From Bacteroidetes bacterium CG12_big_fil_rev_8_21_14_0_65_60_17 (GTDB taxonomy: Bacteria; Bacteroidota; Rhodothermia; Rhodothermales; UBA10348): 64,000 nt of DNA. The first letter of the stretch is position 1; each line of letters opens with the position of its first letter. Both the position numbers and the translations under genes were made by a program. The notes under the pieces are model-generated. The model ran no database searches, was not told the DNA's origin, and saw only the letters and a program-made list of their open reading frames with translations. Where the stretch lies: assembly GCA_002787815.1 (NCBI GenBank), contig PCUY01000057.1:69930-133929 (forward strand), in the 5' to 3' direction. Shown here piece after piece: positions 54,787 through 64,000 of this stretch.

Positions 54787-55258
54787 GTTGCGAGCCACGC
54801 TTGAAAAACAGGCCTCATCCTTTCACTTCACCGCCCGGACGGGCCGGGGGGCTACGGTCCAGATCGATGATCCGTCCTCGCACGCGGACGGCAAGGGTCA
54901 TGGCGCAAGCCCCATGGAACTGTTGCTGGTAGCCGTGGGTGGATGCAGCGCAATAGATATCGTATCCATCCTGGAGAAAGGAAGACACGTGGTGGATGCG
55001 CTGGATATAGACGTGCGCGGGGAAAAGCCGGACGATGCCGTACCGTCATTATTCCAGAAAATACACATCCGCTATGGATTCCGCGGAAATGTCCCGGTAG
55101 ACCGTGCCCGGCGGGCCATCGAGTTGAGTATCGGCACCTACTGTTCTGTAGCGCATACGCTGATGCCAACGGCACAGATCACATGGGATTTCACCATAGA
55201 TGGGAAGATCTTTGGCCCCGTCAACACTGCGCCGGGATTTACCGGCGAACCCAGATAA
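54779..55258 (+). CDS. OsmC/Ohr-family peroxiredoxin-like protein
   Basis: ATG 54779 (overlaps the surE stop). [25 protein letters not shown] and CSVAHTL carry the two conserved Cys contexts of OsmC. Confidence 0.8.
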
Positions 55259-57572
55259 GCGCCGTCTGCGCCGGCACGGTTACACGGCCCGATGCAGGGT
55301 CATGGACGGACGCTGCAATCCCGTCAGAATGTATCTGGTGGCCATCTGAGATCTGGATCCAATCTGCACCGGGAATAGAAAGCCCTTCGAATGTGCCTTC
55401 CGCCCTGCCGGAGTTGATGAGGACGAGTACGGTCCTGTCGACCAGATACCCGAGCATATCAGTGCGCTGAGGCTCGAAGAATCGGTAGTAATCAGCCGCC
55501 GGTTCATGACCGCCGACACGGAATACAGCACCGACGTTGGACGACCTGAAGTCCAACAGGCCTTTCCAGTATGCCAGCATGGCGTCGTAGTCCATGGGAC
55601 TGTCAGCTCCGACGGTATCCCACAGGTATTGGTTGGCGCGCCGCAGGTTGTATGTATCCCGTTTTCCGTGGATGTATATGGGACCAGAGTCCGTTTTTTT
55701 GACCAGTTCGACGAGTGGGGCTATGCCTTTGGAGCGCATGATTTCCGTACCACCGTGAAGCACAATGGGGCCAAGTGATGTCGTGAGCAGTGTCGCCGCA
55801 ATTCGGAACGCCGCTTCATCCACGTGCTTGAGCCCATTCCAGTCCATATCGGAAAAACGGTCAGCCAGCGTCCAGTTATCGTGGATGTCGAGGTAATTGA
55901 TGCCCCGGTTCGGGTCCATTTCCTCCGGGAAGGAATTGGTCAAACCGCGCTTTGTCTGCTCACGAACCGAACCGTCACCTCCGGCAAAACCACGATCCGT
56001 ACGTGGGTCCACCGGATTGGACACCGGTCCCTTGAATGCATTCCTTGCATCGTCCTGGAAGTAGGTGATGGGCGCATCTGCCTTGTACCATCCGAAATCC
56101 GGATCCGAGGCTACTCTAACGTCCGTAGGGGGAATCCAGGCTTCACCGTAAATAATCAGATCTTCCGGCAATTGATCCTTGACCCAGCGCAGCGTCTGCT
56201 CATCAATCTGACCAGCAAGATCAATCCGGAATCCATCGACGCCAAGCGCATTGACCCAGTGGCTGAGTTGGTCCAGGATCCAGCGTTGGACCATGGGACG
56301 CTCTTCCGACTTTATTTCATTACCGAACGGGCCAATATGGCGCAGCGAGTCATCGGTTCTGTGATAGAAGGGGAGATCGATGGCATTGAAATTGAACAGT
56401 AGGTGTCTTCCGTCCATGTTTTCACCGGTATGGTTCGGGACCACGTCAATAATGACAGACAGCCCCTGATCATGGAACGCCTCGACAAGCGCCTTGAACT
56501 GTTCGCGCTCCGCGCCGGGCTCGGTTCGCGGGTCGCGAAACCGGGATTCGACCGCAAAAGCATGCGTGGTTCTGTAGCCCCATTGATAATTTTCTTCCGA
56601 AATGCCCTGTTCTATCATGTACGGGTCGTCCCGGAATGCACGTTGCCATTCATCGTCAGGATAGTGCAGATACTCCTGGACGGGCATGAGGTGGACTACG
56701 TTGATGCCCAGGTCGACCAGATAGTCGAAACCAATGGCTCGCCCCCGGCTGTTCGTCAAACCAGGCATGGCCATGGCACGGAATGTGCCCCGGAGGGCTT
56801 CATCTACCGGCAACCTGTCGGTGAAGTCCTGGACGTGTACCTCATAGGCGATGACATCTTCCATACGAGGCCGGCCTCCGGTTACGGGTGAAGGTGGAGG
56901 CGTGTCCCGCCAGACGCGTGCCTTTCCGAACGAGTCATCGCTGACCAGTGCATATGGGTCTGTGATATAGGCTGGATGCGTGCCGTAGAAGTAGTTGCCC
57001 GGCTCGTCAGGCCCATGAATGGTGTATGTGTAGTACACACCGTGGTGGTTTCCGGGCTCGGTGGCTTCCCACACACCGTCGTTGTCGACACTCATGATCA
57101 CCGTTCGGTCGGGTACTTCTGCAGGTGTGTCCCGATCCGAGTAGAGATGCAATTCAACACCGAATGCCCGCGGGGCGAAGAGCCTGAAGGTTGTTTCGCT
57201 CCCGTCGACCGCAATGGATGCCCCCAAGGTCTTATCGGAATACAGTGTGGAAAACCATGCATCCCGTCGGATGAAGTGCTCTTCCCCTGTGGGGAGATAG
57301 ATGAGCGTATGCAGCCTGCGAACGTCAAGAGGTGTTTTGGGGACGAGGAGGTAGGACTGTGCCCGTTTGGGAAGGACGTTGCTGACCTGAACGTCCCCGG
57401 ATGCAGCAGTCCGTATCCGGAATTCGGACGCGTCGGGCTGGACGTCAGGATCCGAGACATGGACTGTGATCAATGATTTGTTCACGATCTGGGCACGTGA
57501 GATGTGCTGTCTCGCGGATGTCGGCGTTGAGATCAGCAGCAGGACGCAGAAAGGCAGGATTACGCGGAGCAT
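55239..57572 (-). CDS. secreted GH13 pullulanase-type alpha-glucan debranching enzyme
   Basis: 777 aa. Signal peptide MLRVILPFCVLLLISTPTSARQ. YQWGYRTTH (YNWGYDP-like), DVVPNHT, GFRIDLAGQ, YGEAW, NYLDIHDN (GH13 regions I-IV). The 3' end overlaps the osmC 3' end by 20 nt. Confidence 0.85.
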   Translation of the reverse strand: MLRVILPFCVLLLISTPTSARQHISRAQIVNKSLITVHVSDPDVQPDASEFRIRTAASGDVQVSNVLPKRAQSYLLVPKTPLDVRRLHTLIYLPTGEEHFIRRDAWFSTLYSDKTLGASIAVDGSETTFRLFAPRAFGVELHLYSDRDTPAEVPDRTVIMSVDNDGVWEATEPGNHHGVYYTYTIHGPDEPGNYFYGTHPAYITDPYALVSDDSFGKARVWRDTPPPSPVTGGRPRMEDVIAYEVHVQDFTDRLPVDEALRGTFRAMAMPGLTNSRGRAIGFDYLVDLGINVVHLMPVQEYLHYPDDEWQRAFRDDPYMIEQGISEENYQWGYRTTHAFAVESRFRDPRTEPGAEREQFKALVEAFHDQGLSVIIDVVPNHTGENMDGRHLLFNFNAIDLPFYHRTDDSLRHIGPFGNEIKSEERPMVQRWILDQLSHWVNALGVDGFRIDLAGQIDEQTLRWVKDQLPEDLIIYGEAWIPPTDVRVASDPDFGWYKADAPITYFQDDARNAFKGPVSNPVDPRTDRGFAGGDGSVREQTKRGLTNSFPEEMDPNRGINYLDIHDNWTLADRFSDMDWNGLKHVDEAAFRIAATLLTTSLGPIVLHGGTEIMRSKGIAPLVELVKKTDSGPIYIHGKRDTYNLRRANQYLWDTVGADSPMDYDAMLAYWKGLLDFRSSNVGAVFRVGGHEPAADYYRFFEPQRTDMLGYLVDRTVLVLINSGRAEGTFEGLSIPGADWIQISDGHQIHSDGIAASVHDPASGRVTVPAQTALIWVRR

Positions 57573-57610: not shown

Positions 57611-60600
57611 TCAGGCGGCGCGTCCGGGAAAATGGAATATTCTGGCGACGTTATTCTCCTGGTGAGGTGCCATGAGTCCGGTCACCTGACGAAGGAGTTG
57701 TACTTGGGACACGGCACGATCTGTGACTGCCGACACGTGTACATTCGTGGTTTCCGAATCGACATCCTCCCAGAATATGTGAAGGCTGTCCTGGGCACCA
57801 TCATGCAGGTGTTCACGCATGAAGGTGGTCAGTTCGTCACGGATTGTCGCCAGGTTGGCAGAGCGCGATACGGGAACGCACAAACTGACGGCCTGTGCGT
57901 TGTCCAGGAACGTGACGGCGGGACCCAGCATAGCCGCTGGATTCAGTACGACCGACTCGCCTGTCGTGAGGTCTAATCTGACGGTGCTCCTGCTGAGCTT
58001 GATGTCCCGGGCCCTGACTCCATGGAAGAGAACAACAAACCGATTTGCTGCACGTAACTTCCATCGCCACGACGTCATGGCCACAACAAGTTGTATGGCC
58101 GACGAGGATTCGATGGCGATGGAAACGGCACACAGGGCAAGCGCAGTTGAAATTCCCGCAAGCGGCCCCAGAACGGTCACAACCCCTGCCAGAAGGAGTG
58201 CATACAGCAGACACTGGCGTACATACCACAGCAGATGGGAATCGCGGAGATGCGAAATATTGCCAAGTTCAGTGTGGCGAGTGCGTACGACATGTCGAAT
58301 AACAAGATCAGCGGCAATTACATAGGACAGGAACGAAAGAATCCAGAGGAGTACGGCTACGGGAGTGACGGGGGGTAGTGGCACGACAAATCCGGGTGAG
58401 GCCGCGGAATGGTCACGGGAACGGCCCCTGGAAAGATCGTATTCCTGAGCCGGCACAGCGCTTTCATCAGGATGTGCGGTGTCCTCCACGGGTGGGATCA
58501 CCGGCATGAGCACTGCCGATGCAGCCAACGTGTCTGCATCATGTTGAATCGGTCGTGGGGATGACGTCGACCCGCGGAATTGTGATGGAGATGGTGACGG
58601 TGACGAATCCGGGGCCGGTGCAGGAGGAGGGGATGGAGATCCAAGTTGAAGCGATCCGGACGATCCTGTGTCCTGGAACCGGATGGTGCGTTTTACCGGA
58701 ACGGCTTCGAAATACCGTGTCGTGACGGCGCCACCGGTGACGGTAATGCTGTATTCCTGCTCTGCAAAGGTGTGGTAGGCGGGAAGACGATCAGCGGATA
58801 AGAGCCGCAGCACATAGGAGCCGGCGGGAACGCCCCGGACTGTAAAAGAGCCGTTTCTGTCGGTTCGTACCCGCCAGGAACGCGCATCGGACCGAAGTTC
58901 AATCACGGCACCAACTATGCGTTCCTTCTCGACCATTCCGGATCCTACATCGCGGTGCAGAAGACCCGCTTCTCCGGGTGGGCCGAGCCGGGCTACATGA
59001 CCGGAAACACTGCCGGCAGAGACGACCGGGATATCGATCGTACCTGCGTCAGCTCCGACGAGGTACGGCATTTCCGTCAGTGTAACCATCCCATTCGGGA
59101 GGGATACTTGATTGACTTCCAGGTATTCCGAATGGCCCATCGACTTGGGAATGCGAAATTTTCCGTGGGCGTCACTGATAACCAGGTGTGAACCGTAACG
59201 AAGAAGAACACCTTCTATGGGAATACCGGTATCACCATGGTAGACATGGCCATGTAACACATCCAAGGACGCATCACTGGACCGGGGCACGGGTATTCCC
59301 AGAGGCACGGTCACACCCATACGGAATTCCATTTTCCTGTCACTGGATCGTCCGTCCGACATACTTGTCTGGCTCTGGACGAACGCACGACTGCCCGACT
59401 CGAACTGTTTTGACGCCTGGAAAGTGAGGCTGCGGTATGTCTGGGTTTCCCGACCAGTGACCCGATTCTGGATGCCACCCACGGACACGTGCAATTGAGC
59501 AGGAAGTTGGACTCCGGCACGGATGCCATATTGCTCGTACTGCTGTCGGATGCGGGACGAGATCAGGAAATCCGAGTAACGGTCTCCACTGGCCGATATG
59601 CTGAGCCAACGGGTGGGGCTGATCCGCGCTTGGAGGCGGGTTCTGTGGGTGGGCGAAGCCCTGTTGTCCTGGTCAATCCGTTGACCGAAATCCCGGGTTG
59701 CGGTGATGCCCATGCGCGAGCGCTGCAGACCTGTTGTTGCGCGCAGGACGCGTGATTCCGATGAAAGACGGTGGTCCGGCGTGCGGAGCACAATACGGTC
59801 GCGTGTGGCCCGGGCGGATGTGGTCCATGTTGTGGCATGAATGCGGCGGGAATAGGTAACTCCCAGCTTTGCAACGTGCAGCACTCGGTTGGAACCCAGG
59901 TCAGAATTCCTGTACTGGACCTGGAAGGACTCCTCCAACTGAAGTCCGGGCAGCAGTTTGAGGCGAACAGATTCGGAAAAAGACCGGGTGCCGGATTGTG
60001 AGCCCGGAAGTGACGTGGCAGCGCTCAGCGCCTCCATGCGGCTTTGAACTGGACCCCTGGTATACGCCGTCTCGACGCGACACGAGGGGTCTGAAAGGCG
60101 ACCACTGCCCGACAGGCCACATTCAGCCCCGATCAGCGACCGTGACCCGGCCGGTGTCCAGTCGTAGGCAAGCGTTGCAATCGATCCGGAGTAGAGCCCC
60201 TTTCGCGTCAAGAGGTTTGCCGAAAAAAATGAAGATGTGTTCAGGTGTCGGCGTACCGAGACGCCCGCAAGTGCGTCGTCGGGTGCGTAGGAGCGACTTC
60301 GGCTTCCAAGCAACGTTACGTCCCATGCGTTGAAGAGCATTCGGGATGATGCTCCCAGTCGGTAGACACCCCATGTCGTAAGTCGCGACATATTCTGTGC
60401 ATGATCTCCGACGACGACTTCCACCTTTTCAGACGTGTAGGAGATGCGGAATTCATCTCGTGCACCCAAGAGTCCCTGGGACGAGTTACCGGCAAGGGTA
60501 CCAACGACTTCCACGTCTCCATTGAAGGCATCGAATGCAGTCGAAATGTGGGCGACGGGTTGTGTGCCTCGTTCGTTTCCGATGGCTTCCATCGTGAGGG

Positions 60601-61372
60601 CAAGAGGCACGGGCTGGCCACGCGTTGCCATCTTTTCATACAGCGGAATGATGTCCGTTCGAATGGAGACATGGTCTTCGATCCCGGGGGAGTCGACAAT
60701 GCGAGCTGTGATGGTGTATGACGCCGCCGTGACGGCTTCCGTGTCGCTGTTGGTTGTGAGGGAGATGGGGACCACCGCGGATTCACCCGATTCAAGCTCC
60801 AGACTGTGGGCACCAAGGTGTAATTGTCCGGCATCGGATCCATCCCAGGAGAGCGCCATGCTGGCACGTGCGTTCCCGTCGTTGAATACGGTCAGTGCGG
60901 CCTGGACGGTCTTCCCGGCTGCAACAAAGGGCGGCGTTGATTCCATGTGCATTGACAGACCGTACTGCGTATCGACGGAAACGCTGACCGTTTCGGAGGC
61001 AGATAATTCCGTTTGACCAGGGGCAGAGACAGAGAACGTGACGTCATACGAACCGGCCAGGAACAGGTCAGGGACGTGGACGCTGACCAGGCGGACAACA
61101 GGATTTTCAGGACGGACTGTCATTTCCGACTGCGGGCGGAGACTTCTCCAGCCCGCCGGCATGTCAATACGGGGTGTCAGTGTGGCCAAGCCGGATCCGG
61201 AGAGTTCGACCCTGAATGCCAGTGTCATGACGTCGCCAGGTGCAACGCGGATGGGTGACTGGCCGACAAGGGAAACGAAAACAGAGTCGGGTCCTGAAAC
61301 GATTTCAGCCGCCCCCTGTGGGGGGACGGCTAAAAACATGATAAACAACACTATGTGTCGAAGCAGAGGCAC
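57611..61372 (-). CDS. 1253-aa multidomain envelope protein: signal peptide, two Ig-like (NEW3/CARDB-like) domains, ~440-aa beta-barrel-like region, two CarboxypepD_reg-like domains, Pro/Ser-rich linker, 3-TM MscS-like C-terminal module
   Basis: Single uninterrupted ORF. The GTG start (cac 61370-61372) directly abuts the TAA of the upstream gene. Domain calls come from motif reading: PAGWRSL..VHVPDLFLAGSYDV (NEW3-like); alternating strands LHVAKLGVTYS / WLSISASGDRY / TYRSLTFQASKQF / MEFRMGVTVPLG; GHVYHGDTGIPIEGVLL..SDAHGKFRI and TDRNGSFTVRGVPAGSYVLRLL (CarboxypepD_reg-like); SPSPPPAPAPDSSPSPSPS; TM helices at aa ~1003-1100; TGESVVLNPAAMLGPAVTFLDNA (MscS beta-domain-like). Confidence 0.85.
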   Translation of the reverse strand: MPLLRHIVLFIMFLAVPPQGAAEIVSGPDSVFVSLVGQSPIRVAPGDVMTLAFRVELSGSGLATLTPRIDMPAGWRSLRPQSEMTVRPENPVVRLVSVHVPDLFLAGSYDVTFSVSAPGQTELSASETVSVSVDTQYGLSMHMESTPPFVAAGKTVQAALTVFNDGNARASMALSWDGSDAGQLHLGAHSLELESGESAVVPISLTTNSDTEAVTAASYTITARIVDSPGIEDHVSIRTDIIPLYEKMATRGQPVPLALTMEAIGNERGTQPVAHISTAFDAFNGDVEVVGTLAGNSSQGLLGARDEFRISYTSEKVEVVVGDHAQNMSRLTTWGVYRLGASSRMLFNAWDVTLLGSRSRSYAPDDALAGVSVRRHLNTSSFFSANLLTRKGLYSGSIATLAYDWTPAGSRSLIGAECGLSGSGRLSDPSCRVETAYTRGPVQSRMEALSAATSLPGSQSGTRSFSESVRLKLLPGLQLEESFQVQYRNSDLGSNRVLHVAKLGVTYSRRIHATTWTTSARATRDRIVLRTPDHRLSSESRVLRATTGLQRSRMGITATRDFGQRIDQDNRASPTHRTRLQARISPTRWLSISASGDRYSDFLISSRIRQQYEQYGIRAGVQLPAQLHVSVGGIQNRVTGRETQTYRSLTFQASKQFESGSRAFVQSQTSMSDGRSSDRKMEFRMGVTVPLGIPVPRSSDASLDVLHGHVYHGDTGIPIEGVLLRYGSHLVISDAHGKFRIPKSMGHSEYLEVNQVSLPNGMVTLTEMPYLVGADAGTIDIPVVSAGSVSGHVARLGPPGEAGLLHRDVGSGMVEKERIVGAVIELRSDARSWRVRTDRNGSFTVRGVPAGSYVLRLLSADRLPAYHTFAEQEYSITVTGGAVTTRYFEAVPVKRTIRFQDTGSSGSLQLGSPSPPPAPAPDSSPSPSPSQFRGSTSSPRPIQHDADTLAASAVLMPVIPPVEDTAHPDESAVPAQEYDLSRGRSRDHSAASPGFVVPLPPVTPVAVLLWILSFLSYVIAADLVIRHVVRTRHTELGNISHLRDSHLLWYVRQCLLYALLLAGVVTVLGPLAGISTALALCAVSIAIESSSAIQLVVAMTSWRWKLRAANRFVVLFHGVRARDIKLSRSTVRLDLTTGESVVLNPAAMLGPAVTFLDNAQAVSLCVPVSRSANLATIRDELTTFMREHLHDGAQDSLHIFWEDVDSETTNVHVSAVTDRAVSQVQLLRQVTGLMAPHQENNVARIFHFPGRAA
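58373..58660 (-). other. Pro/Ser/Ala-rich low-complexity linker (aa ~905-1000) inside the 1253-aa ORF
   Basis: Translation: GSSGSLQLGSPSPPPAPAPDSSPSPSPSQFRGSTSSPRP...PVIPPVEDTAHPDESAVPAQ...SPGFVVPLPP. Confidence 0.8.
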
Positions 61373-62185
61373 TTAGTTGATGGCAAGAGTGTATTCGGCT
61401 CCGAAGACTTCGTTCATTCCAGCGTCCATGATTACAAGGGCCTTGTACTCACCTTGAGGTAGCGATCCGAGTACGATTTTCTGTTTTACGGATGTCCCCG
61501 GATAGATCCTGTTTTTGAATCCATCCCGTTTTCCGACCGGATTGCCCATGGCATCGTAGAGTTCGATCCAGATATCGGGCTGTGCCAATCGGTTTCCGTT
61601 GTTCACGATGGAAACATCCAATTGGGCGTGACCTTGTTCGTTTTTTACAAGTGTGCTTTCCATGATGTTCAGGAGACTTGATCCGGTTCCTGTGATATGG
61701 GTAGCAACTTGTATGCCATACCGGGTAATCTGTCGAATACCGAATTCTGCCTTCGTAGAGTCTGCATTGGTACGCGACTCCGGTGAATCCACGGGGATAC
61801 CCTCGACCATTATCATGCTCCACCAGGAACCGGAAAGGGTATCAGAGTCGGGAACGTGTACCGCGTACGGGATGGAAACAGTCTGAAGGGGTGGAACGCT
61901 TGTGGAGGAGAGACCGAGATCAATCCAGCGTGCATTGGATCGGGCCAGGGCTCCCGGTGCGCCGAAGAAGTTGGATCCATCGAAATGGAACGAATAATCG
62001 GTCTGGTAAATCCGGATTTCCTCCATCACGTTCGAGTCGTTCCGGACCGAAATCGTGCCGTGGTATGTGGTGCCGGGTTCGGCAACCTGGTCATGACTCA
62101 GTTGGCTCCGTACGGAAATCTGCGCTTCGGCGACAGATGTGCCGCATAGTGCAAGTAAAAGTGTAGGTAAAACAAGACGTGTCAT
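61373..62185 (-). CDS. 270-aa secreted two-beta-sandwich protein, DUF916/DUF3324 (CscA-like) architecture; candidate periplasmic chaperone/assembly factor
   Basis: Signal peptide MTRLVLPTLLLALCGTSVAEAQ. Domain 1: EPGTTYHGTISVRNDSNVMEEIRIYQTDY...VPPLQTVSIPYAVHVPDSDTLSGSWWSMIMVE...RYGIQVATHI. Domain 2: AQLDVSIVNNGNRLAQPDIWIELYD...IYPGTSVKQKIVLGSLPQGEYKALVIMD...FGAEYTLAIN. ATGA overlap with the upstream gene. No C-terminal TM anchor. Confidence 0.8.
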   Translation of the reverse strand: MTRLVLPTLLLALCGTSVAEAQISVRSQLSHDQVAEPGTTYHGTISVRNDSNVMEEIRIYQTDYSFHFDGSNFFGAPGALARSNARWIDLGLSSTSVPPLQTVSIPYAVHVPDSDTLSGSWWSMIMVEGIPVDSPESRTNADSTKAEFGIRQITRYGIQVATHITGTGSSLLNIMESTLVKNEQGHAQLDVSIVNNGNRLAQPDIWIELYDAMGNPVGKRDGFKNRIYPGTSVKQKIVLGSLPQGEYKALVIMDAGMNEVFGAEYTLAIN

Positions 62186-62667
62186 TGTGCCAGAAGGGTA
62201 TAGGTTACTGTGTGCGTATCGTCTCCGTGTGTTTGACTGTTGCCGTCCGCAACACGTGCTGAGGCCCGGTATCGAAGCAGTCCGGTACCCTGTTGGGATC
62301 GGGATCCGGGCAGGATATTCGTGAGGATGTCTTCATCGAACATGCCATCGACGAGTTCGACCTCGGGGTGCATATCGACCATGCTTCCGGTTCCATAACT
62401 GGTTACCTGCAATTCCACGAACAACCGAAAGTGCTGTGAGGTAGCCATGGTTGAGACCACGAGTTTGGCGGGAACGCCGAGATTGGCGTCCCAGAATATT
62501 CGCGTACCGGCATCCGTGGCATCGACAGGCTCTCCGCCGGGCGGAGCTTCCGATATCTCGAGTGTAATGGGGCCACCACCGGTCAGGAATTCAAGCCTCT
62601 GCGCATCGACACTTGTCGCAGAGGTACCCATTATAATGACTGCTAATATGTAGCGTAACAACGACAT
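62182..62667 (-). CDS. small secreted beta-rich protein, divergent member of the local three-gene family (candidate minor subunit)
   Basis: 161 aa. Signal peptide MSLLRYILAVIIMGTSATSVDAQ. Shares the family layout and the C-terminal HTVTYTL motif with the two upstream paralogues. Starts 8 nt after the upstream stop. Confidence 0.75.
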   Translation of the reverse strand: MSLLRYILAVIIMGTSATSVDAQRLEFLTGGGPITLEISEAPPGGEPVDATDAGTRIFWDANLGVPAKLVVSTMATSQHFRLFVELQVTSYGTGSMVDMHPEVELVDGMFDEDILTNILPGSRSQQGTGLLRYRASARVADGNSQTHGDDTHTVTYTLLAQ

Positions 62668-62675
62668 GTGCCCAG

Positions 62676-63248
62676 TCAGTTGGATGTCAACGTGAAGGTT
62701 ACTCGGCGCGATATGCCTGCAGTGCCAGTTGGTGCGACCGTGATATCGGCATGGCCTGTGTAGGTTATCCCGAGGTTGGTCGCAGCAATCAGGTTGACAC
62801 CTTTGACGAGGTCGACCGGATCGCTGCTGAGTATTCGACGGGTGGCCGTTGCGCCCGGAGGAGGCGTGAGTTCGACCGACAGTTCCATACCGGCAGGAAA
62901 TTCCGTATCGAGTGACCCCACGATTTTCTTGTCACTTCCGTTGACCGTGAGTGCATAGGTCGACCCGGAGTGGGTGACCGGTGAGAGCGGCGTTCCTGCT
63001 TCCGCCTCGGCAATGGGGATCAGTACGTCACCGCTTATTGCGATCCGGTTTATTTCCAGCACGCGAACCGTGACTGTCTGGGAGAGCGATACCTGGTTTC
63101 CGGCAAGTGGAATGGCGTCCGGAAGGGGAGGTGGAGTCTGGGCCCACGCAGACGGGGACAGCCCAAGCAGCGCCACAACACACGCCGAAAAGAGAGAAAG
63201 GGCCCATGCCGCGAGTCCAACAGTCTTATAACGCTGTGGATGCACCAT
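62676..63248 (-). CDS. small secreted beta-rich protein, paralogue 2 (has an extra Pro-rich N-terminal extension after the signal peptide)
   Basis: 190 aa. Signal peptide ending SPSAWA-QTPPPLPDAIPLAG. Clear by-eye paralogy to 63289-63774. AAGGAG lies ~8 nt upstream of the ATG. Confidence 0.8.
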   Translation of the reverse strand: MVHPQRYKTVGLAAWALSLFSACVVALLGLSPSAWAQTPPPLPDAIPLAGNQVSLSQTVTVRVLEINRIAISGDVLIPIAEAEAGTPLSPVTHSGSTYALTVNGSDKKIVGSLDTEFPAGMELSVELTPPPGATATRRILSSDPVDLVKGVNLIAATNLGITYTGHADITVAPTGTAGISRRVTFTLTSN

Positions 63249-63288
63249 GGACCCTTCTCCTTTTCTGCTTGATCAACAACGACAGCGG

Positions 63289-63774
63289 TCAGTTGGTAAT
63301 CGTGTACGTGACGGTGTAACCGGTCGACACCAGTTTGCCAGCTGCGGCCGTTGCCGAGAACGTGTAGTTCAAGGCCAGTCCGGACGCGGCTATGGTAGAC
63401 ATGCCGGTCACGACATCGGATGCAGTTTCCGTCAATGCAACGTCCGTGCTGCCCGTTGCACCGAGGGGTGCAGCCGCATCCACGACCAGTGACATGTTCG
63501 CCGGAAGGTTGGTATCAATCTCCGCCGTGATCTTCTTGGCCGACTCGTTCGTCGTGACGGCATACGAGGCTGAACCGGATACCGGATCCGGATCGGAACC
63601 CGGCGTCGCCTGGTCGATGGTCAGTGTGACGTCGCCCGTGATGGCCAGGACATTGATGGCCGCCACCTCCATGGTGACGGTATGGCCTTCGGTATCTGTC
63701 TGGGCAAATGCGACATGCGACACACCGAGTGCGACGAACATGGCGAGCGCAAATGCACGTAGTGTTCTATTCAT
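63289..63774 (-). CDS. small secreted beta-rich protein, paralogue 1 (first gene of the operon; candidate major subunit)
   Basis: ATG 63774 (ORF open to 63879) gives MNRTLRAFALAMFVALGVSHVAFA-QTDTEG. A perfect AAGGAGGT lies 8 nt upstream. 161 aa, Thr/Ala/Val/Ser-rich, no Cys. Confidence 0.8.
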   Translation of the reverse strand: MNRTLRAFALAMFVALGVSHVAFAQTDTEGHTVTMEVAAINVLAITGDVTLTIDQATPGSDPDPVSGSASYAVTTNESAKKITAEIDTNLPANMSLVVDAAAPLGATGSTDVALTETASDVVTGMSTIAASGLALNYTFSATAAAGKLVSTGYTVTYTITN

Positions 63775-63782
63775 GGTATTGT

Positions 63783-63790
63783 ACCTCCTT
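63783..63790 (-). promoter_or_regulatory. Shine-Dalgarno sequence AAGGAGGT, 8-nt spacer to the ATG of the first small-subunit gene
   Basis: Plus strand acctcctt at 63783-63790. This is the strongest SD I noticed in the window. Confidence 0.6.
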
Positions 63791-63809: not shown

Positions 63810-63828
63810 TCGGAGGCCTGTCCTCCGA
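63810..63828 (-). promoter_or_regulatory. 7-bp stem / 5-nt loop hairpin in the leader of the operon (tcggagg-cctgt-cctccga); role unknown (5'-UTR structure or terminator of an upstream gene)
   Basis: Read directly. On the minus strand it is followed by TTTCAC and lies 36-54 nt upstream of the ATG. Confidence 0.3.
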
Positions 63829-64000
63829 CTCAAACCGGGTATCGTCTGCTTTCCGGGTTCCTGAAGCCATGAATTGCATGACGACGTTACCGTTTCAAGA
63901 ACGACAAGGTCTTGGTAACACTAAGCCCGCCAACACGTAATCGGTATGCGTAAAGGCCTGATGTGACGCCCTGGGGACGCCACATGACATCGTGCCAACC

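What the first reader, a model, noticed from the sequence alone, without database searches (positions are those of the whole stretch)
57611..63790. Five-gene coupled operon with chaperone-usher-like logic but non-canonical parts: candidate undescribed surface-fibre / cell-surface-complex assembly system
SEEN: Five minus-strand ORFs run 63774->57611. Their junctions are 40 nt (63289/63248), 8 nt (62676/62667), an ATGA overlap (62185/62182), and a TAA directly abutting GTG (61373/61372). Only the first gene has a perfect AAGGAGGT SD. Every product starts with a signal-peptide-like N-terminus. The order is three paralogous ~160-190-aa Cys-free beta-rich proteins, then a 270-aa protein made of two beta-sandwich-like halves, then a 1253-aa protein ordered Ig-like x2 / barrel-like / beta-sandwich x2. 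ESTABLISHED: This order (several small subunits, chaperone, usher) is that of chaperone-usher operons, especially the archaic Csu type. Usher proteins are likewise built as periplasmic N-domain, barrel, then two C-terminal beta-sandwich domains. INFERENCE: I cannot see PapD, FimD or SCPU hallmark motifs. The 270-aa protein instead looks like the DUF916+DUF3324 architecture of CscA from Gram-positive WxL/Csc surface-complex clusters. As I recall, those clusters were proposed to serve carbohydrate utilisation. The small proteins end in a [VT][YF]T[LI] strand reminiscent of the terminal motif of WxL-type or DUF4402-type subunits. A diderm version of such a system, with its own outer-membrane component, would be new.
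Basis: partly seen in the sequence, partly recalled or inferred. Interest (0 to 1): 0.8.

Follow-up and report, generated by a model that had tools for sequence, protein, structure and literature searches.

The report
Uncharacterised chaperone-usher-like surface fibre operon
This is a conserved, so far unannotated gene cluster of Rhodothermales/Ignavibacteria-type bacteria that looks built to assemble a surface fibre as chaperone-usher pili are, but from parts with no detectable sequence relationship to the known pilus families.

Summary
The five minus-strand genes and their junctions are as described. None of the three small proteins or the 270-aa protein matches a Pfam or NCBIfam family. An AlphaFold model of the 270-aa protein (pLDDT 93) is a two-Ig-domain protein. 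Its best PDB matches are Enterococcus WxLIP (E 9e-14), then pilus chaperones CfaA, CsuC and FimC. A model of residues 1-905 of the 1253-aa protein (pLDDT 91) shows two Ig domains, about 26 consecutive barrel strands with no inserted plug, and two beta-sandwiches. Its best PDB matches are the ushers FimD and PapC (E 2e-11). The order small subunits, 270-aa protein, large protein holds in 81 of 82 loci from Rhodothermales, Ignavibacteriota, Bacteroidota and others. The subunit type encoded just before the chaperone-like gene lacks the N-terminal strand that the others carry, as expected of a tip subunit in donor-strand exchange. Residues ~986-1253 form an MscS-like inner-membrane module found only in this clade; most relatives end in a SPOR domain instead. 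Donor-strand exchange itself was not tested. Verdict: a new, deeply divergent chaperone-usher-like system. It belongs neither to the classical usher/PapD families nor to WxL clusters.

The parts
63887..64000 (-). 3' end of an upstream same-strand gene, cut by the window edge. It encodes the C-terminal sorting domain of a type-9-secretion cargo protein ('...GWHDVMWRPQGVTSGLYAYRLRVGGLSVTKTLSFLKR*').
   Evidence: Translation aligns with the end of L004:5330-8308. A homologous 977-2423-aa protein (ORF lengths as called) lies directly upstream of the subunit genes in all 13 Rhodothermales-clade loci. The homologues give weak Por_Secre_tail hits.
63812..63826 (-). Leader hairpin GGAGG-ACAGG-CCUCC in the 113-nt spacer before A1.
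   Evidence: RNA fold of 63850-63765 gives -25.5 kcal/mol, z -2.25. The stem is partly kept in L004 through G-U pairs. Its function is unknown.
63783..63790 (-). Shine-Dalgarno sequence AAGGAGGT of A1.
   Evidence: Read in the sequence. Identical in L004.
63289..63774 (-). A1: small subunit (161 aa) with signal peptide, an N-terminal strand (HTVTMEVAAIN) and a C-terminal TVTYTIT strand. It is the candidate major fibre subunit.
   Evidence: Family of at least 94 proteins, none annotated. No Pfam or PDB sequence match.
62676..63248 (-). A2: paralogous small subunit (190 aa). It has an extra N-terminal 'QTPPPLPDAIPL' segment before the N-terminal strand. It is a candidate minor, adaptor or terminating subunit.
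   Evidence: 37% identical to A1. The PPPLP segment is conserved in the clade.
62182..62667 (-). A3: divergent small subunit (161 aa) that lacks the N-terminal strand. It is the candidate tip (first-incorporated) subunit. Its stop overlaps the start of C (ATGA).
   Evidence: hhalign against the A1/A2 type gives 99.3%, E 2e-20, starting at A1 residue 42. 74 A3-type proteins align from HMM position about 39, against about 6 for 172 A1/A2-type proteins. This type lies directly upstream of C in most loci.
61373..62185 (-). C: periplasmic two-Ig-domain chaperone-like protein (270 aa) with no membrane anchor. A long, lower-confidence loop spans residues 131-154, between the last two strands of domain 1.
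   Evidence: AlphaFold pLDDT 93. Foldseek hits: WxLIP 9i25_C E 9e-14, then CfaA, CsuC, FaeE, FimC, Caf1M at E 1e-9 to 1e-7. More than 215 homologues were found, and 274 species genomes encode a relative.
60647..61285 (-). U residues 30-242: two N-terminal Ig-like domains, probably a remote paralogue of C. Candidate periplasmic docking module.
   Evidence: AlphaFold. NPCBM_assoc and Ig_VWA7 hits. hhalign of the C family against the U family gives 87.8%, E 3.4e-6, with C 21-234 aligned to U 29-200.
59294..60610 (-). U residues 255-693: about 26 consecutive beta-strands joined by hairpins. This is an outer-membrane barrel with no inserted plug domain.
   Evidence: DSSP of the AlphaFold model, pLDDT mostly above 90; the longest inter-strand gap is 13 residues. 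Foldseek top hits are FimD and PapC ushers, then LptD and porins. No sequence match in the PDB.
58697..59260 (-). U residues 705-892: two transthyretin-like (CarboxypepD_reg) beta-sandwich domains, in the position of usher CTD1 and CTD2.
   Evidence: Pfam PF13620 E 7.6e-10. AlphaFold. Profile hits to NOMO and SdrD domains.
58418..58696 (-). U residues 893-985: Pro/Ser-rich linker of about 90 residues, low complexity.
   Evidence: Sequence. Not alignable outside the clade.
57611..58417 (-). U residues 986-1253 plus stop: MscS-like module (three hydrophobic helices, beta domain, alpha/beta domain). It ends in an invariant Ala-Ala.
   Evidence: Hydropathy. Profile of 7 clade members against the PDB: YnaI/MscS chimera E 2.7e-5, MscS E 1e-3. 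Present in P0216, P0217 and six loci, L004-L008 and L011. Absent from all other lineages examined.

Best explanation
The cluster encodes a chaperone-usher-type assembly line for a thin surface fibre, built from parts that are only structurally, not recognisably by sequence, related to the known pilus machinery.

Proposed mechanism:
1. All products are exported by Sec (inferred from their signal peptides).
2. The soluble two-Ig-domain protein C binds newly exported small subunits in the periplasm by beta-strand complementation and keeps them assembly-competent. This is inferred from its fold, which is shared with WxLIP and PapD-like chaperones.
3. C-subunit complexes dock on U. U is an outer-membrane barrel of about 26 strands, flanked on the periplasmic side by an N-terminal C-like tandem Ig module and two C-terminal beta-sandwich domains. 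The architecture is shown by the model. The periplasmic location of the C-terminus is supported by the SPOR tails of relatives.
4. At U, the N-terminal strand (consensus TQTVTxxVxA) of each incoming A1/A2-type subunit replaces the chaperone strand in the previous subunit. This is donor-strand exchange (inferred), and the chain is extruded through the barrel.
5. A3-type subunits keep the body and the C-terminal TVT[YF]T strand but lack the N-terminal strand. They can only accept a strand, so they would enter first and sit at the distal tip (inferred).
6. A1 is the first gene and has the strongest ribosome-binding site, so it is the likely major subunit. A2, with its extra PPPLP segment, is a likely minor or base subunit (speculative).
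7. U is tied to the cell wall by a SPOR tail in most lineages. In the window's clade it is instead tied to the inner membrane by an MscS-like module on a long Pro-rich linker.
For: Anatomy.

Protein C:
- AlphaFold pLDDT 93, two beta-sandwich domains.
- Foldseek hits over the full length to WxLIP and to CU chaperones of the alternate, archaic and classical classes.
- No C-terminal membrane helix.

Protein U:
- AlphaFold pLDDT 90.8: Ig, Ig, 26 strands, two sandwiches.
- FimD and PapC are the best PDB matches over 750-820 columns, 4-5 orders of magnitude better in E-value than LptD or porins.
- 29 of 54 relatives end in a peptidoglycan-binding SPOR domain. This places the C-terminus, and with an even strand number the N-terminus too, in the periplasm.

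Subunits:
- Several paralogues per operon, 1-7 plus often one after U.
- The A3 type is homologous to the A1/A2 type but is missing exactly the N-terminal strand in 74 sequences.

Synteny and spread:
- C-U adjacency in 81 of 82 loci, with small or overlapping junctions.
- The system occurs across Rhodothermales, Ignavibacteriota, Bacteroidota, Gemmatimonadota and scattered other phyla.
- The U family has more than 1371 50%-identity clusters at E<1e-30.
Against: - No model of a small subunit and no complex prediction was made. An incomplete Ig fold and strand exchange are inferred only from the missing strand in A3.
- There is no sequence-level link to Usher, PapD, Fimbrial or SCPU families.
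- Foldseek TM-scores to ushers are low (0.2-0.43), and the barrel differs: about 26 strands and no plug.
- The best structural match of C is WxLIP. In the literature WxLIP is proposed to be a stable surface scaffold, not a transient chaperone (PMC10599100).
- Every genome record shown for the fetched loci is a MAG, and there is no experimental observation of any fibre.
Confidence: 0.6

Rival explanations
1. A diderm counterpart of the Gram-positive WxL/Csc surface complex. C would be a true WxLIP homologue that stays bound to the small proteins as a structural scaffold. The products would form a static envelope-associated complex (adhesion or polysaccharide binding) rather than a polymer. U would serve as its outer-membrane anchor or exit pore.
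For: WxLIP is the top Foldseek match of C (E 9e-14, against 1e-9 for CU chaperones). 13 of 40 C-family members give weak PF06030 (WxLIP_PGBD) hits. WxL clusters likewise pair one WxLIP with two or more small secreted proteins (PMC10599100). A pullulanase gene follows the operon in the window.
Against: - The small proteins lack both WxL motifs (A1 has no Trp) and hit no WxL model.
- C lacks the WxLIP transmembrane helix.
- The C profile finds no WxLIP chain in the PDB by sequence.
- The pullulanase neighbour occurs in only 3 of 82 loci.
- A static complex does not explain a conserved subunit type that lacks the N-terminal strand, or an usher-like barrel.
Confidence: 0.15
2. A dedicated outer-membrane export or transport system without polymerisation. 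U would be a large gated translocon, LptD-like or porin-like, for folded small surface proteins or for a non-protein cargo. C and the small proteins would be periplasmic or surface accessory binding proteins.
For: The barrel has 26 strands like LptD, and LptD and porins are also significant Foldseek hits (E 1e-6 to 1e-5). It has no usher plug. In the window's clade U is fused to an MscS-like channel module, which hints at solute or tension-related function.
Against: - Ushers outrank LptD by 4-5 orders of magnitude, and they align across the flanking domains too.
- U has no LptD-type jellyroll domain.
- The multiplicity of paralogous subunits with conserved terminal strands, and the chaperone-like C, are typical of fibre systems.
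- The MscS module is restricted to one clade.
Confidence: 0.15
3. In the Rhodothermales clade the small proteins, C and U serve the upstream type-9-secretion cargo protein. For example, they could build a stalk or anchor that displays this large adhesin, so the functional unit would be the six-gene cluster.
For: A homologous 977-2423-aa protein with a T9SS sorting domain lies directly upstream, on the same strand, in all 13 loci of the clade. Its 3' end is at window 63887-64000.
Against: The gene is absent from the corresponding position in Ignavibacteriota, Bacteroidota and other loci that keep the subunit-C-U core. A 113-nt spacer with a stable hairpin separates it from A1.
Confidence: 0.1

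Closest known systems
Chaperone-usher pili, especially the archaic (sigma; Csu, CupE) and alternate (alpha; CFA/I) classes
   Same: - Gene order: several small subunits, then a periplasmic two-Ig-domain protein, then a large outer-membrane protein.
- C superposes on CfaA, CsuC, FaeE, FimC and Caf1M.
- U has periplasmic N-terminal domain(s), a large barrel and two C-terminal beta-sandwiches, and its best PDB matches are FimD and PapC.
- One subunit class lacks the N-terminal strand, as tip subunits do.
- Subunits end in a conserved aromatic-containing beta-strand.
   Different: - No match to Pfam Usher, PapD_N/C, Fimbrial or SCPU. hhalign against FimD, FimC and FimA finds nothing.
- The barrel has about 26 strands rather than 24, with no plug inserted in it.
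- The N-terminal module is a tandem Ig pair that looks like a paralogue of the chaperone itself.
- The C-terminal domains are transthyretin-like and are followed by a SPOR or MscS-like tail.
- Hosts are mainly FCB-group bacteria and Gemmatimonadota rather than Proteobacteria.
WxL / Csc cell-surface clusters of Firmicutes, with WxLIP (DUF916+DUF3324; PDB 9i25, 9i1y)
   Same: C is structurally closest to WxLIP, with two perpendicular Ig-like domains over the full length, plus weak recurrent PF06030 hits. WxLIP is predicted to insert a beta-hairpin strand into its WxL partner (PMC10599100), which is also a strand-complementation interaction. Both kinds of cluster combine one such protein with several small secreted proteins.
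   Different: - C has no transmembrane helix.
- The small proteins have no WxL motifs and no LPXTG partner.
- The hosts are diderms, and the cluster has its own outer-membrane barrel.
- No hit reaches the Pfam threshold, and the C profile finds no PDB sequence hit to WxLIP.
MscS-family mechanosensitive channels (for U residues ~986-1253 only)
   Same: The profile of the extension matches the pore helix, beta domain and alpha/beta domain of YnaI/MscS (E 2.7e-5 to 1e-3). Three hydrophobic helices precede it. With the N-terminus outside the membrane, that topology would fit a periplasmic linker.
   Different: The module is fused to the C-terminus of an outer-membrane barrel protein through a Pro-rich linker of about 90 residues. 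The window protein itself does not reach any Pfam MS_channel threshold. It ends in an invariant Ala-Ala.
Environmental donor-strand-exchange fibrils TLP-1a/b (PDB 9IKJ, 9IKK; CryoSeek, PMC11494351)
   Same: These are orphan Ig-like fibre subunits of about the same kind: signal peptide, N-terminal donor strand, and a closest predicted model from a Flavobacteriales MAG. They show that uncharacterised strand-exchange pili exist in freshwater bacteria of this broad group.
   Different: No sequence link was found. The A1-type and A3-type profiles find nothing relevant in the PDB sequences at E<=10.

Membership tests
Chaperone-usher pathway: usher (Pfam Usher PF00577; FimD/PapC/CsuD) | Sequence membership in the usher family | tested here: not met
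   No Usher hit for U or for 5 homologues in Pfam. The U profile against PDB sequences finds only transthyretin-like domains. hhalign of the U family against FimD gives 1.9% probability.
Chaperone-usher pathway: usher | 24-stranded barrel with a plug domain inserted between strands 6 and 7 | tested here: not met
   The AlphaFold model has 26 consecutive strands (255-693). The longest inter-strand gap is 13 residues, so there is no inserted domain.
Chaperone-usher pathway: usher | Barrel flanked by a periplasmic N-terminal domain and two C-terminal beta-sandwich domains, with overall fold similarity | tested here: met
   Domain order Ig-Ig-barrel-sandwich-sandwich. FimD and PapC are the top Foldseek hits (E 2e-11 to 2e-9) over 750-820 columns, though TM-scores are only 0.2-0.43.
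Chaperone-usher pathway: chaperone (PapD_N PF00345 / PapD_C PF02753) | Sequence membership in the PapD family | tested here: not met
   No PapD hit in C or in 40 family members. hhalign against FimC gives 0.2%. The C profile against PDB sequences finds nothing.
Chaperone-usher pathway: chaperone | Soluble periplasmic protein made of two Ig-like domains | tested here: met
   AlphaFold pLDDT 93. Full-length Foldseek matches to CfaA, CsuC, FaeE, FimC, Caf1M, DraB and CupB2. Signal peptide present, no membrane helix.
Chaperone-usher pathway: subunits | Ig-like fold lacking its last strand, completed by the chaperone and then by the N-terminal strand of the next subunit | tested here: inconclusive
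   There is no structure model of a small subunit. Indirect evidence: A3-type subunits lack exactly the N-terminal strand that A1/A2-type subunits carry. A covariation analysis failed.
Chaperone-usher pathway: subunits | Membership in the Fimbrial, SCPU or DUF4402 subunit families | tested here: not met
   No such hit in 39 members at E<=1. hhalign against FimA gives 0.5%.
Chaperone-usher pathway: operon | Subunit genes, chaperone gene and usher gene clustered and co-inherited | tested here: met
   Pattern a(n)-C-U in 81 of 82 loci, with short or overlapping junctions.
WxL / Csc cluster | WxLIP: DUF916 (PF06030) + DUF3324 + C-terminal transmembrane helix | tested here: not met
   The fold matches (9i25_C, E 9e-14). 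Only sub-threshold PF06030 hits are found, in 13 of 40 members (best E 0.003). There is no DUF3324 hit and no transmembrane helix.
WxL / Csc cluster | [quoted passage not shown] | tested here: not met
   A1 contains no Trp. A3 has a single W-D-A. No WxL hit in 39 members.
MscS family (U residues ~986-1253) | Pore-lining helix followed by the MscS beta domain and alpha/beta domain | tested here: inconclusive
   The clade profile matches YnaI/MscS over these parts (E 2.7e-5; MscS 1e-3). No Pfam MS_channel hit is found in the window protein, and only a weak MS_channel_2nd hit (E 0.01) in L005. No structure model was made.
Type-9-secretion cargo (upstream gene, window 63887-64000) | C-terminal sorting domain (Por_Secre_tail PF18962) | tested here: inconclusive
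   Homologues in L001 and L003 score just below threshold (25.3 and 21.1 bits against a cut-off of 27). The window holds only the last 37 residues, which align with them.

The most novel reading that the evidence does not exclude
This would be a fourth, independently diverged branch of strand-exchange pilus machinery that is native to FCB-group bacteria. Its chaperone would be the diderm relative of Gram-positive WxLIP, which would link WxL surface clusters and chaperone-usher pili as one ancient family. Its usher would carry a built-in copy of the chaperone as its docking module and would have no plug. In one Rhodothermales clade the usher would be a single polypeptide reaching from the outer membrane to an MscS-type channel in the inner membrane. 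That would physically couple a surface fibre to an inner-membrane tension-gated pore.
Probability: 0.3. Interest if true: 0.85.

Novelty: new variant of a known kind. Interest (0 to 1): 0.72.

Why it matters
Chaperone-usher pili are studied almost only in Proteobacteria and are defined by the Usher and PapD sequence families. A system with the same logic but unrecognisable parts would have several consequences.
- It is present in at least 274 species-level genomes, and the large protein has more than 1300 sequence clusters. This would extend this type of surface-fibre assembly to abundant environmental lineages: Rhodothermales, Ignavibacteriota, Bacteroidota and Gemmatimonadota.
- It gives names to three sizeable families of 'hypothetical proteins'.
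- It offers a structural bridge between pilus chaperones and the Gram-positive WxLIP proteins.
- It provides a natural case of a plug-less, larger usher-like pore.
- The fusion to an MscS-like module raises a concrete question: how is one polypeptide inserted into both membranes, and is fibre tension sensed?

Tried and rejected
- Sequence searches of all five proteins and of family members against Pfam and NCBIfam gave no usable family for A1-A3 or C.
- Single-sequence and profile searches against PDB sequences gave nothing for C, the A1 type or the A3 type. For U they gave only transthyretin-like domains.
- hhalign against E. coli FimD, FimC and FimA was negative. These were single-sequence templates, so sensitivity was limited.
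It succeeded with proteins from the representative search.
- Mean-field covariation on 258 small subunits (Neff 170), meant to recover strand pairing, was dominated by indel columns and discarded.
- A functional link to the downstream pullulanase was rejected, because that gene is adjacent in only 3 of 82 loci.
- An assembly artefact or gene-fusion error as the origin of the long U was rejected. The extension is conserved at 22-51% identity in P0216, P0217 and six loci from different assemblies.
- A link to the orphan TLP-1 fibrils was considered, but no sequence similarity was found.
- Consensus promoter and terminator scans were uninformative.

Full report
**Observation**

The ORF list and the sequence confirm five consecutive minus-strand genes:
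- A1, 63774-63289, 161 aa
- A2, 63248-62676, 190 aa
- A3, 62667-62182, 161 aa
- C, 62185-61373, 270 aa
- U, 61372-57611, GTG start, 1253 aa

The junctions are exactly as reported: 40 nt, 8 nt, an ATGA overlap, and TAA directly followed by GTG. AAGGAGGT sits 8 nt before the A1 ATG.

Every product begins with a signal-peptide-like segment. A1, A2, A3 and C read AxA|Q at the probable cleavage site.

There are minor corrections:
- A2 also has a GGAG-type ribosome-binding site.
- A2 has one Cys, in its signal peptide.
- A3 is only marginally similar to A1 by BLAST.

The window comes from the MAG 'Bacteroidetes bacterium CG12_big_fil_rev_8_21_14_0_65_60', since P0001 is 100% identical to C. GC content is even across the region.

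**No known family by sequence**

Pfam and NCBIfam give nothing for A1, A2, A3 or C.

For U they give only generic Ig-like hits (NPCBM_assoc/NEW3, Ig_VWA7) at residues 62-229 and CarboxypepD_reg at 817-885.

Scanning 39 small-subunit homologues and 40 C homologues one by one again gives no Fimbrial, SCPU, DUF4402, WxL or PapD hit. The only recurrent signals for C are weak and sub-threshold: PF06030 (WxLIP_PGBD = DUF916) in 13 of 40 members and fn3_5 in 22 of 40.

Profiles of C, the A1 type, the A3 type and U find no relevant chain among PDB sequences. hhalign against E. coli FimD, FimC and FimA is negative.

**Structure of C**

With a 40-sequence alignment, AlphaFold gives a confident model (pLDDT 93). 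It has two beta-sandwich domains, residues 23-164 and 172-269. A lower-confidence loop of about 24 residues (131-154) lies between the last two strands of domain 1. There is no membrane helix.

Foldseek against the PDB ranks Enterococcus faecium WxLIP first (9i25_C E 9e-14; 9i1y). Pilus chaperones of all classes follow at E 1e-9 to 1e-7, over essentially the full length: CfaA, CsuC, FaeE, YadV, FimC, Caf1M, DraB and CupB2.

C is equally a PapD-like two-domain protein.

In the literature, WxLIP is membrane-anchored and is predicted to insert a beta-hairpin strand into its WxL partner (PMC10599100).

**Structure of U**

The word-indexed search found only five relatives. Two of them, at 55-56% identity, cover the whole 1253 aa.

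A profile search of the representative library found 1371 clusters at E<1e-30. An 80-sequence alignment built from it gave a confident model of residues 1-905 (pLDDT 90.8, pTM 0.58). Its parts are:
- Ig-like domains at 30-133 and 139-242;
- 26 consecutive hairpin-connected strands from 255 to 693, with no gap longer than 13 residues, so no inserted plug domain;
- two beta-sandwiches at 705-797 and 814-892.

Foldseek ranks the ushers first: FimD 9fy9_D and 3rfz_B at E 2e-11, and PapC 7lhg_C at 2e-9, over 750-820 aligned columns. LptD comes next (7.5e-7), then porins.

TM-scores are low (0.2-0.43). This is similarity of architecture, not proof of homology.

Profile comparison suggests that the N-terminal tandem Ig module of U is a remote paralogue of C (87.8%, E 3.4e-6; C 21-234 aligned to U 29-200).

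**Conservation**

A pattern scan of one genome per GTDB species with the C profile found 274 genomes that encode a relative. 79 loci were fetched.

Judged from the record titles:
- most are Ignavibacteriota, Rhodothermales and unclassified Bacteroidota;
- a few are labelled Deltaproteobacteria, Syntrophales, Bacteriovoracaceae, Phycisphaerae, Pirellulales, Zixiibacteriota, Thiodiazotropha or Troglogloeales.

Small-subunit relatives also occur in Gemmatimonadota, including Longimicrobium.

These loci were added to three found through exact-protein look-ups. phmmer with the window proteins then classifies the same-strand ORFs as follows:
- C is present in 82 of 82 loci.
- U lies directly downstream of C in 81.
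- An A3-type gene lies directly upstream of C in most, often with the same 4-nt overlap.
- One to seven A1/A2-type genes lie further upstream.
- In about 33 cases another small-subunit gene follows U.
- Further, more divergent subunit paralogues fill the apparent gaps.

The pullulanase that follows U in the window is adjacent in only three close relatives. It is not part of the system.

**The small subunits**

The A1/A2-type family has about 135 mature residues and is rich in Thr, Ala and Ser. Two segments are conserved:
- an N-terminal stretch of alternating hydrophobic residues right after the signal peptide (consensus TQTVTxxVxAINxIAxxG);
- a C-terminal RTVTYTIT strand.

The A3-type family is homologous to it (hhalign 99.3%, E 2e-20). 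However, that alignment starts at A1 residue 42 and at the very beginning of mature A3.

An HMM of the A1 type shows the same thing. 172 A1/A2-type proteins align from model position about 6. 74 A3-type proteins align from position about 39, immediately after their signal peptides. A3-type subunits therefore lack precisely the first strand.

In chaperone-usher pili the subunit without a donor strand is the one incorporated first, at the tip (established knowledge of Fim, Pap and Csu systems). The same logic makes A3 the candidate tip and the N-terminal strand the candidate donor strand.

This is inference.

**C-terminal tail of U**

Typical U proteins are 900-1040 aa. Their last 130 residues contain a SPOR peptidoglycan-binding domain in 29 of 54 cases (best E 1.3e-12). 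This places the C-terminus in the periplasm, as in ushers.

Only the window's Rhodothermales clade has longer proteins (P0216, P0217, L004-L008, L011). Hydropathy shows three membrane-helix-like segments at about 993-1100.

A profile of seven clade members matches the pore helix, beta domain and alpha/beta domain of YnaI/MscS (E 2.7e-5; MscS about 1e-3). L005 gives a weak MS_channel_2nd hit.

The module follows a Pro/Ser-rich linker of about 90 residues and ends in an invariant Ala-Ala.

With the N-terminus of an MscS-type module on the periplasmic side, a single polypeptide could span from the outer-membrane barrel to the inner membrane. Whether it stays uncleaved is unknown.

**Upstream gene**

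The last 114 nt of the window (63887-64000, minus strand) encode the end of a type-9-secretion sorting domain. The homologous 977-2423-aa protein lies directly upstream of the subunit genes in all 13 Rhodothermales-clade loci but not elsewhere.

The 113-nt spacer before A1 folds into a stable hairpin, GGAGG/CCUCC (-25.5 kcal/mol, z -2.25). The hairpin is partly conserved in L004.

**Interpretation**

The best-supported reading is a chaperone-usher-like fibre assembly pathway. Its steps are:
1. Sec export of all components.
2. Capture of the subunits by C through strand complementation.
3. Delivery to U.
4. Strand exchange with the N-terminal strand of the next subunit.
5. Extrusion through the barrel, with A3 at the tip.
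6. Anchoring of the machine to the wall (SPOR) or, in this clade, to the inner membrane (MscS-like module).

What is shown: the folds of C and U, the conserved gene order, the paralogy of the subunits, and the missing strand in A3. What is inferred: the interactions, the polymer and the location.

Rival readings are less well supported. They are a static WxL-like surface complex, a non-polymerising export or transport system, and service to the upstream type-9 cargo.

**Comparison with known systems**

The system works like a chaperone-usher pathway but fails the sequence-family tests for usher, chaperone and subunit. It also fails the structural test for a plug-bearing 24-strand barrel.

It shares the WxLIP fold but fails the defining WxL tests: two WxL motifs, a membrane-anchored WxLIP and a monoderm context (PMC9772566).

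Full-text searches found no description of such a system. Orphan strand-exchange fibrils from pond water (TLP-1, PMC11494351) show that such undiscovered pili exist, but no sequence link to them was found.

I therefore class it as a new variant of a known kind. All evidence is computational, and every genome record shown for the fetched loci is a MAG.

Noticed in passing
window 63887-64000 (- strand): The window edge cuts a same-strand gene whose last 37 residues are the end of a type-9-secretion C-terminal sorting domain. A homologous 977-2423-aa protein precedes the subunit genes in all 13 Rhodothermales-clade loci (L001-L013). The cluster there has six conserved genes, not five.
   Followed up: partly
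window 57611-58417 (- strand; U residues ~986-1253): An MscS-like inner-membrane channel module is fused, through a Pro/Ser-rich linker of about 90 residues, to the C-terminus of an outer-membrane barrel protein. The fusion is conserved only in this clade. One polypeptide predicted to sit in both membranes is unusual.
   Followed up: partly
window 57614-57619 (- strand) and the ends of U in L004-L009 and L011: The extended U proteins all end in Ala-Ala (RAA, DAA, KAA). So does the L009 protein, which has only one membrane helix. This resembles a C-terminal degradation or processing tag. Its meaning is unknown.
   Followed up: no
window 63812-63826 (- strand): A stable leader hairpin, GGAGG-ACAGG-CCUCC, lies 22 nt upstream of the A1 Shine-Dalgarno sequence (fold -25.5 kcal/mol, z -2.25). 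Its CCUCC arm could in principle also pair with the real Shine-Dalgarno sequence. The stem is partly kept in L004 through G-U pairs.
   Followed up: partly
U homologues in L018, L060, L033, L030 and 25 others (last 130 residues): More than half of the ordinary-length U proteins (29 of 54) end in a SPOR peptidoglycan-binding domain. Others end in Lys/Pro-rich low-complexity tails.
   Followed up: yes
window 61285-60647 compared with 62185-61373: The two N-terminal Ig domains of U align in order with the two domains of C (hhalign 87.8%, E 3.4e-6). This suggests that the outer-membrane protein carries a built-in copy of the chaperone-like module.
   Followed up: partly
window 63170-63130 (- strand; A2 residues ~36-47) and A2-type genes of L004-L008: In this clade, A2-type subunits carry a conserved 'AQxPPPLPxA(I/L)' segment ahead of the N-terminal strand. 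It is absent from the A1 type.
   Followed up: no
L018:9007-9510, L015:469-1167, L016:7934-8641, L017:461-1000: Many Ignavibacteriota and Bacteroidota operons hold a further, more divergent class of small-subunit paralogue that phmmer with the window proteins missed. It has the same HTVTV N-terminal and HTITFTV C-terminal strands.
   Followed up: partly
window A1, A2, A3, C signal-peptide cleavage sites: All four mature proteins would start with Gln after AxA. This fits the Bacteroidetes 'Q-rule' (N-terminal pyroglutamate). That rule is from my own knowledge and was not tested here.
   Followed up: no
window 55239-57572 (- strand): A 777-aa secreted type I pullulanase-like GH13 enzyme (CBM48 plus an alpha-amylase domain) lies 38 nt downstream of U. 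It is adjacent to the operon only in the three closest relatives.
   Followed up: yes
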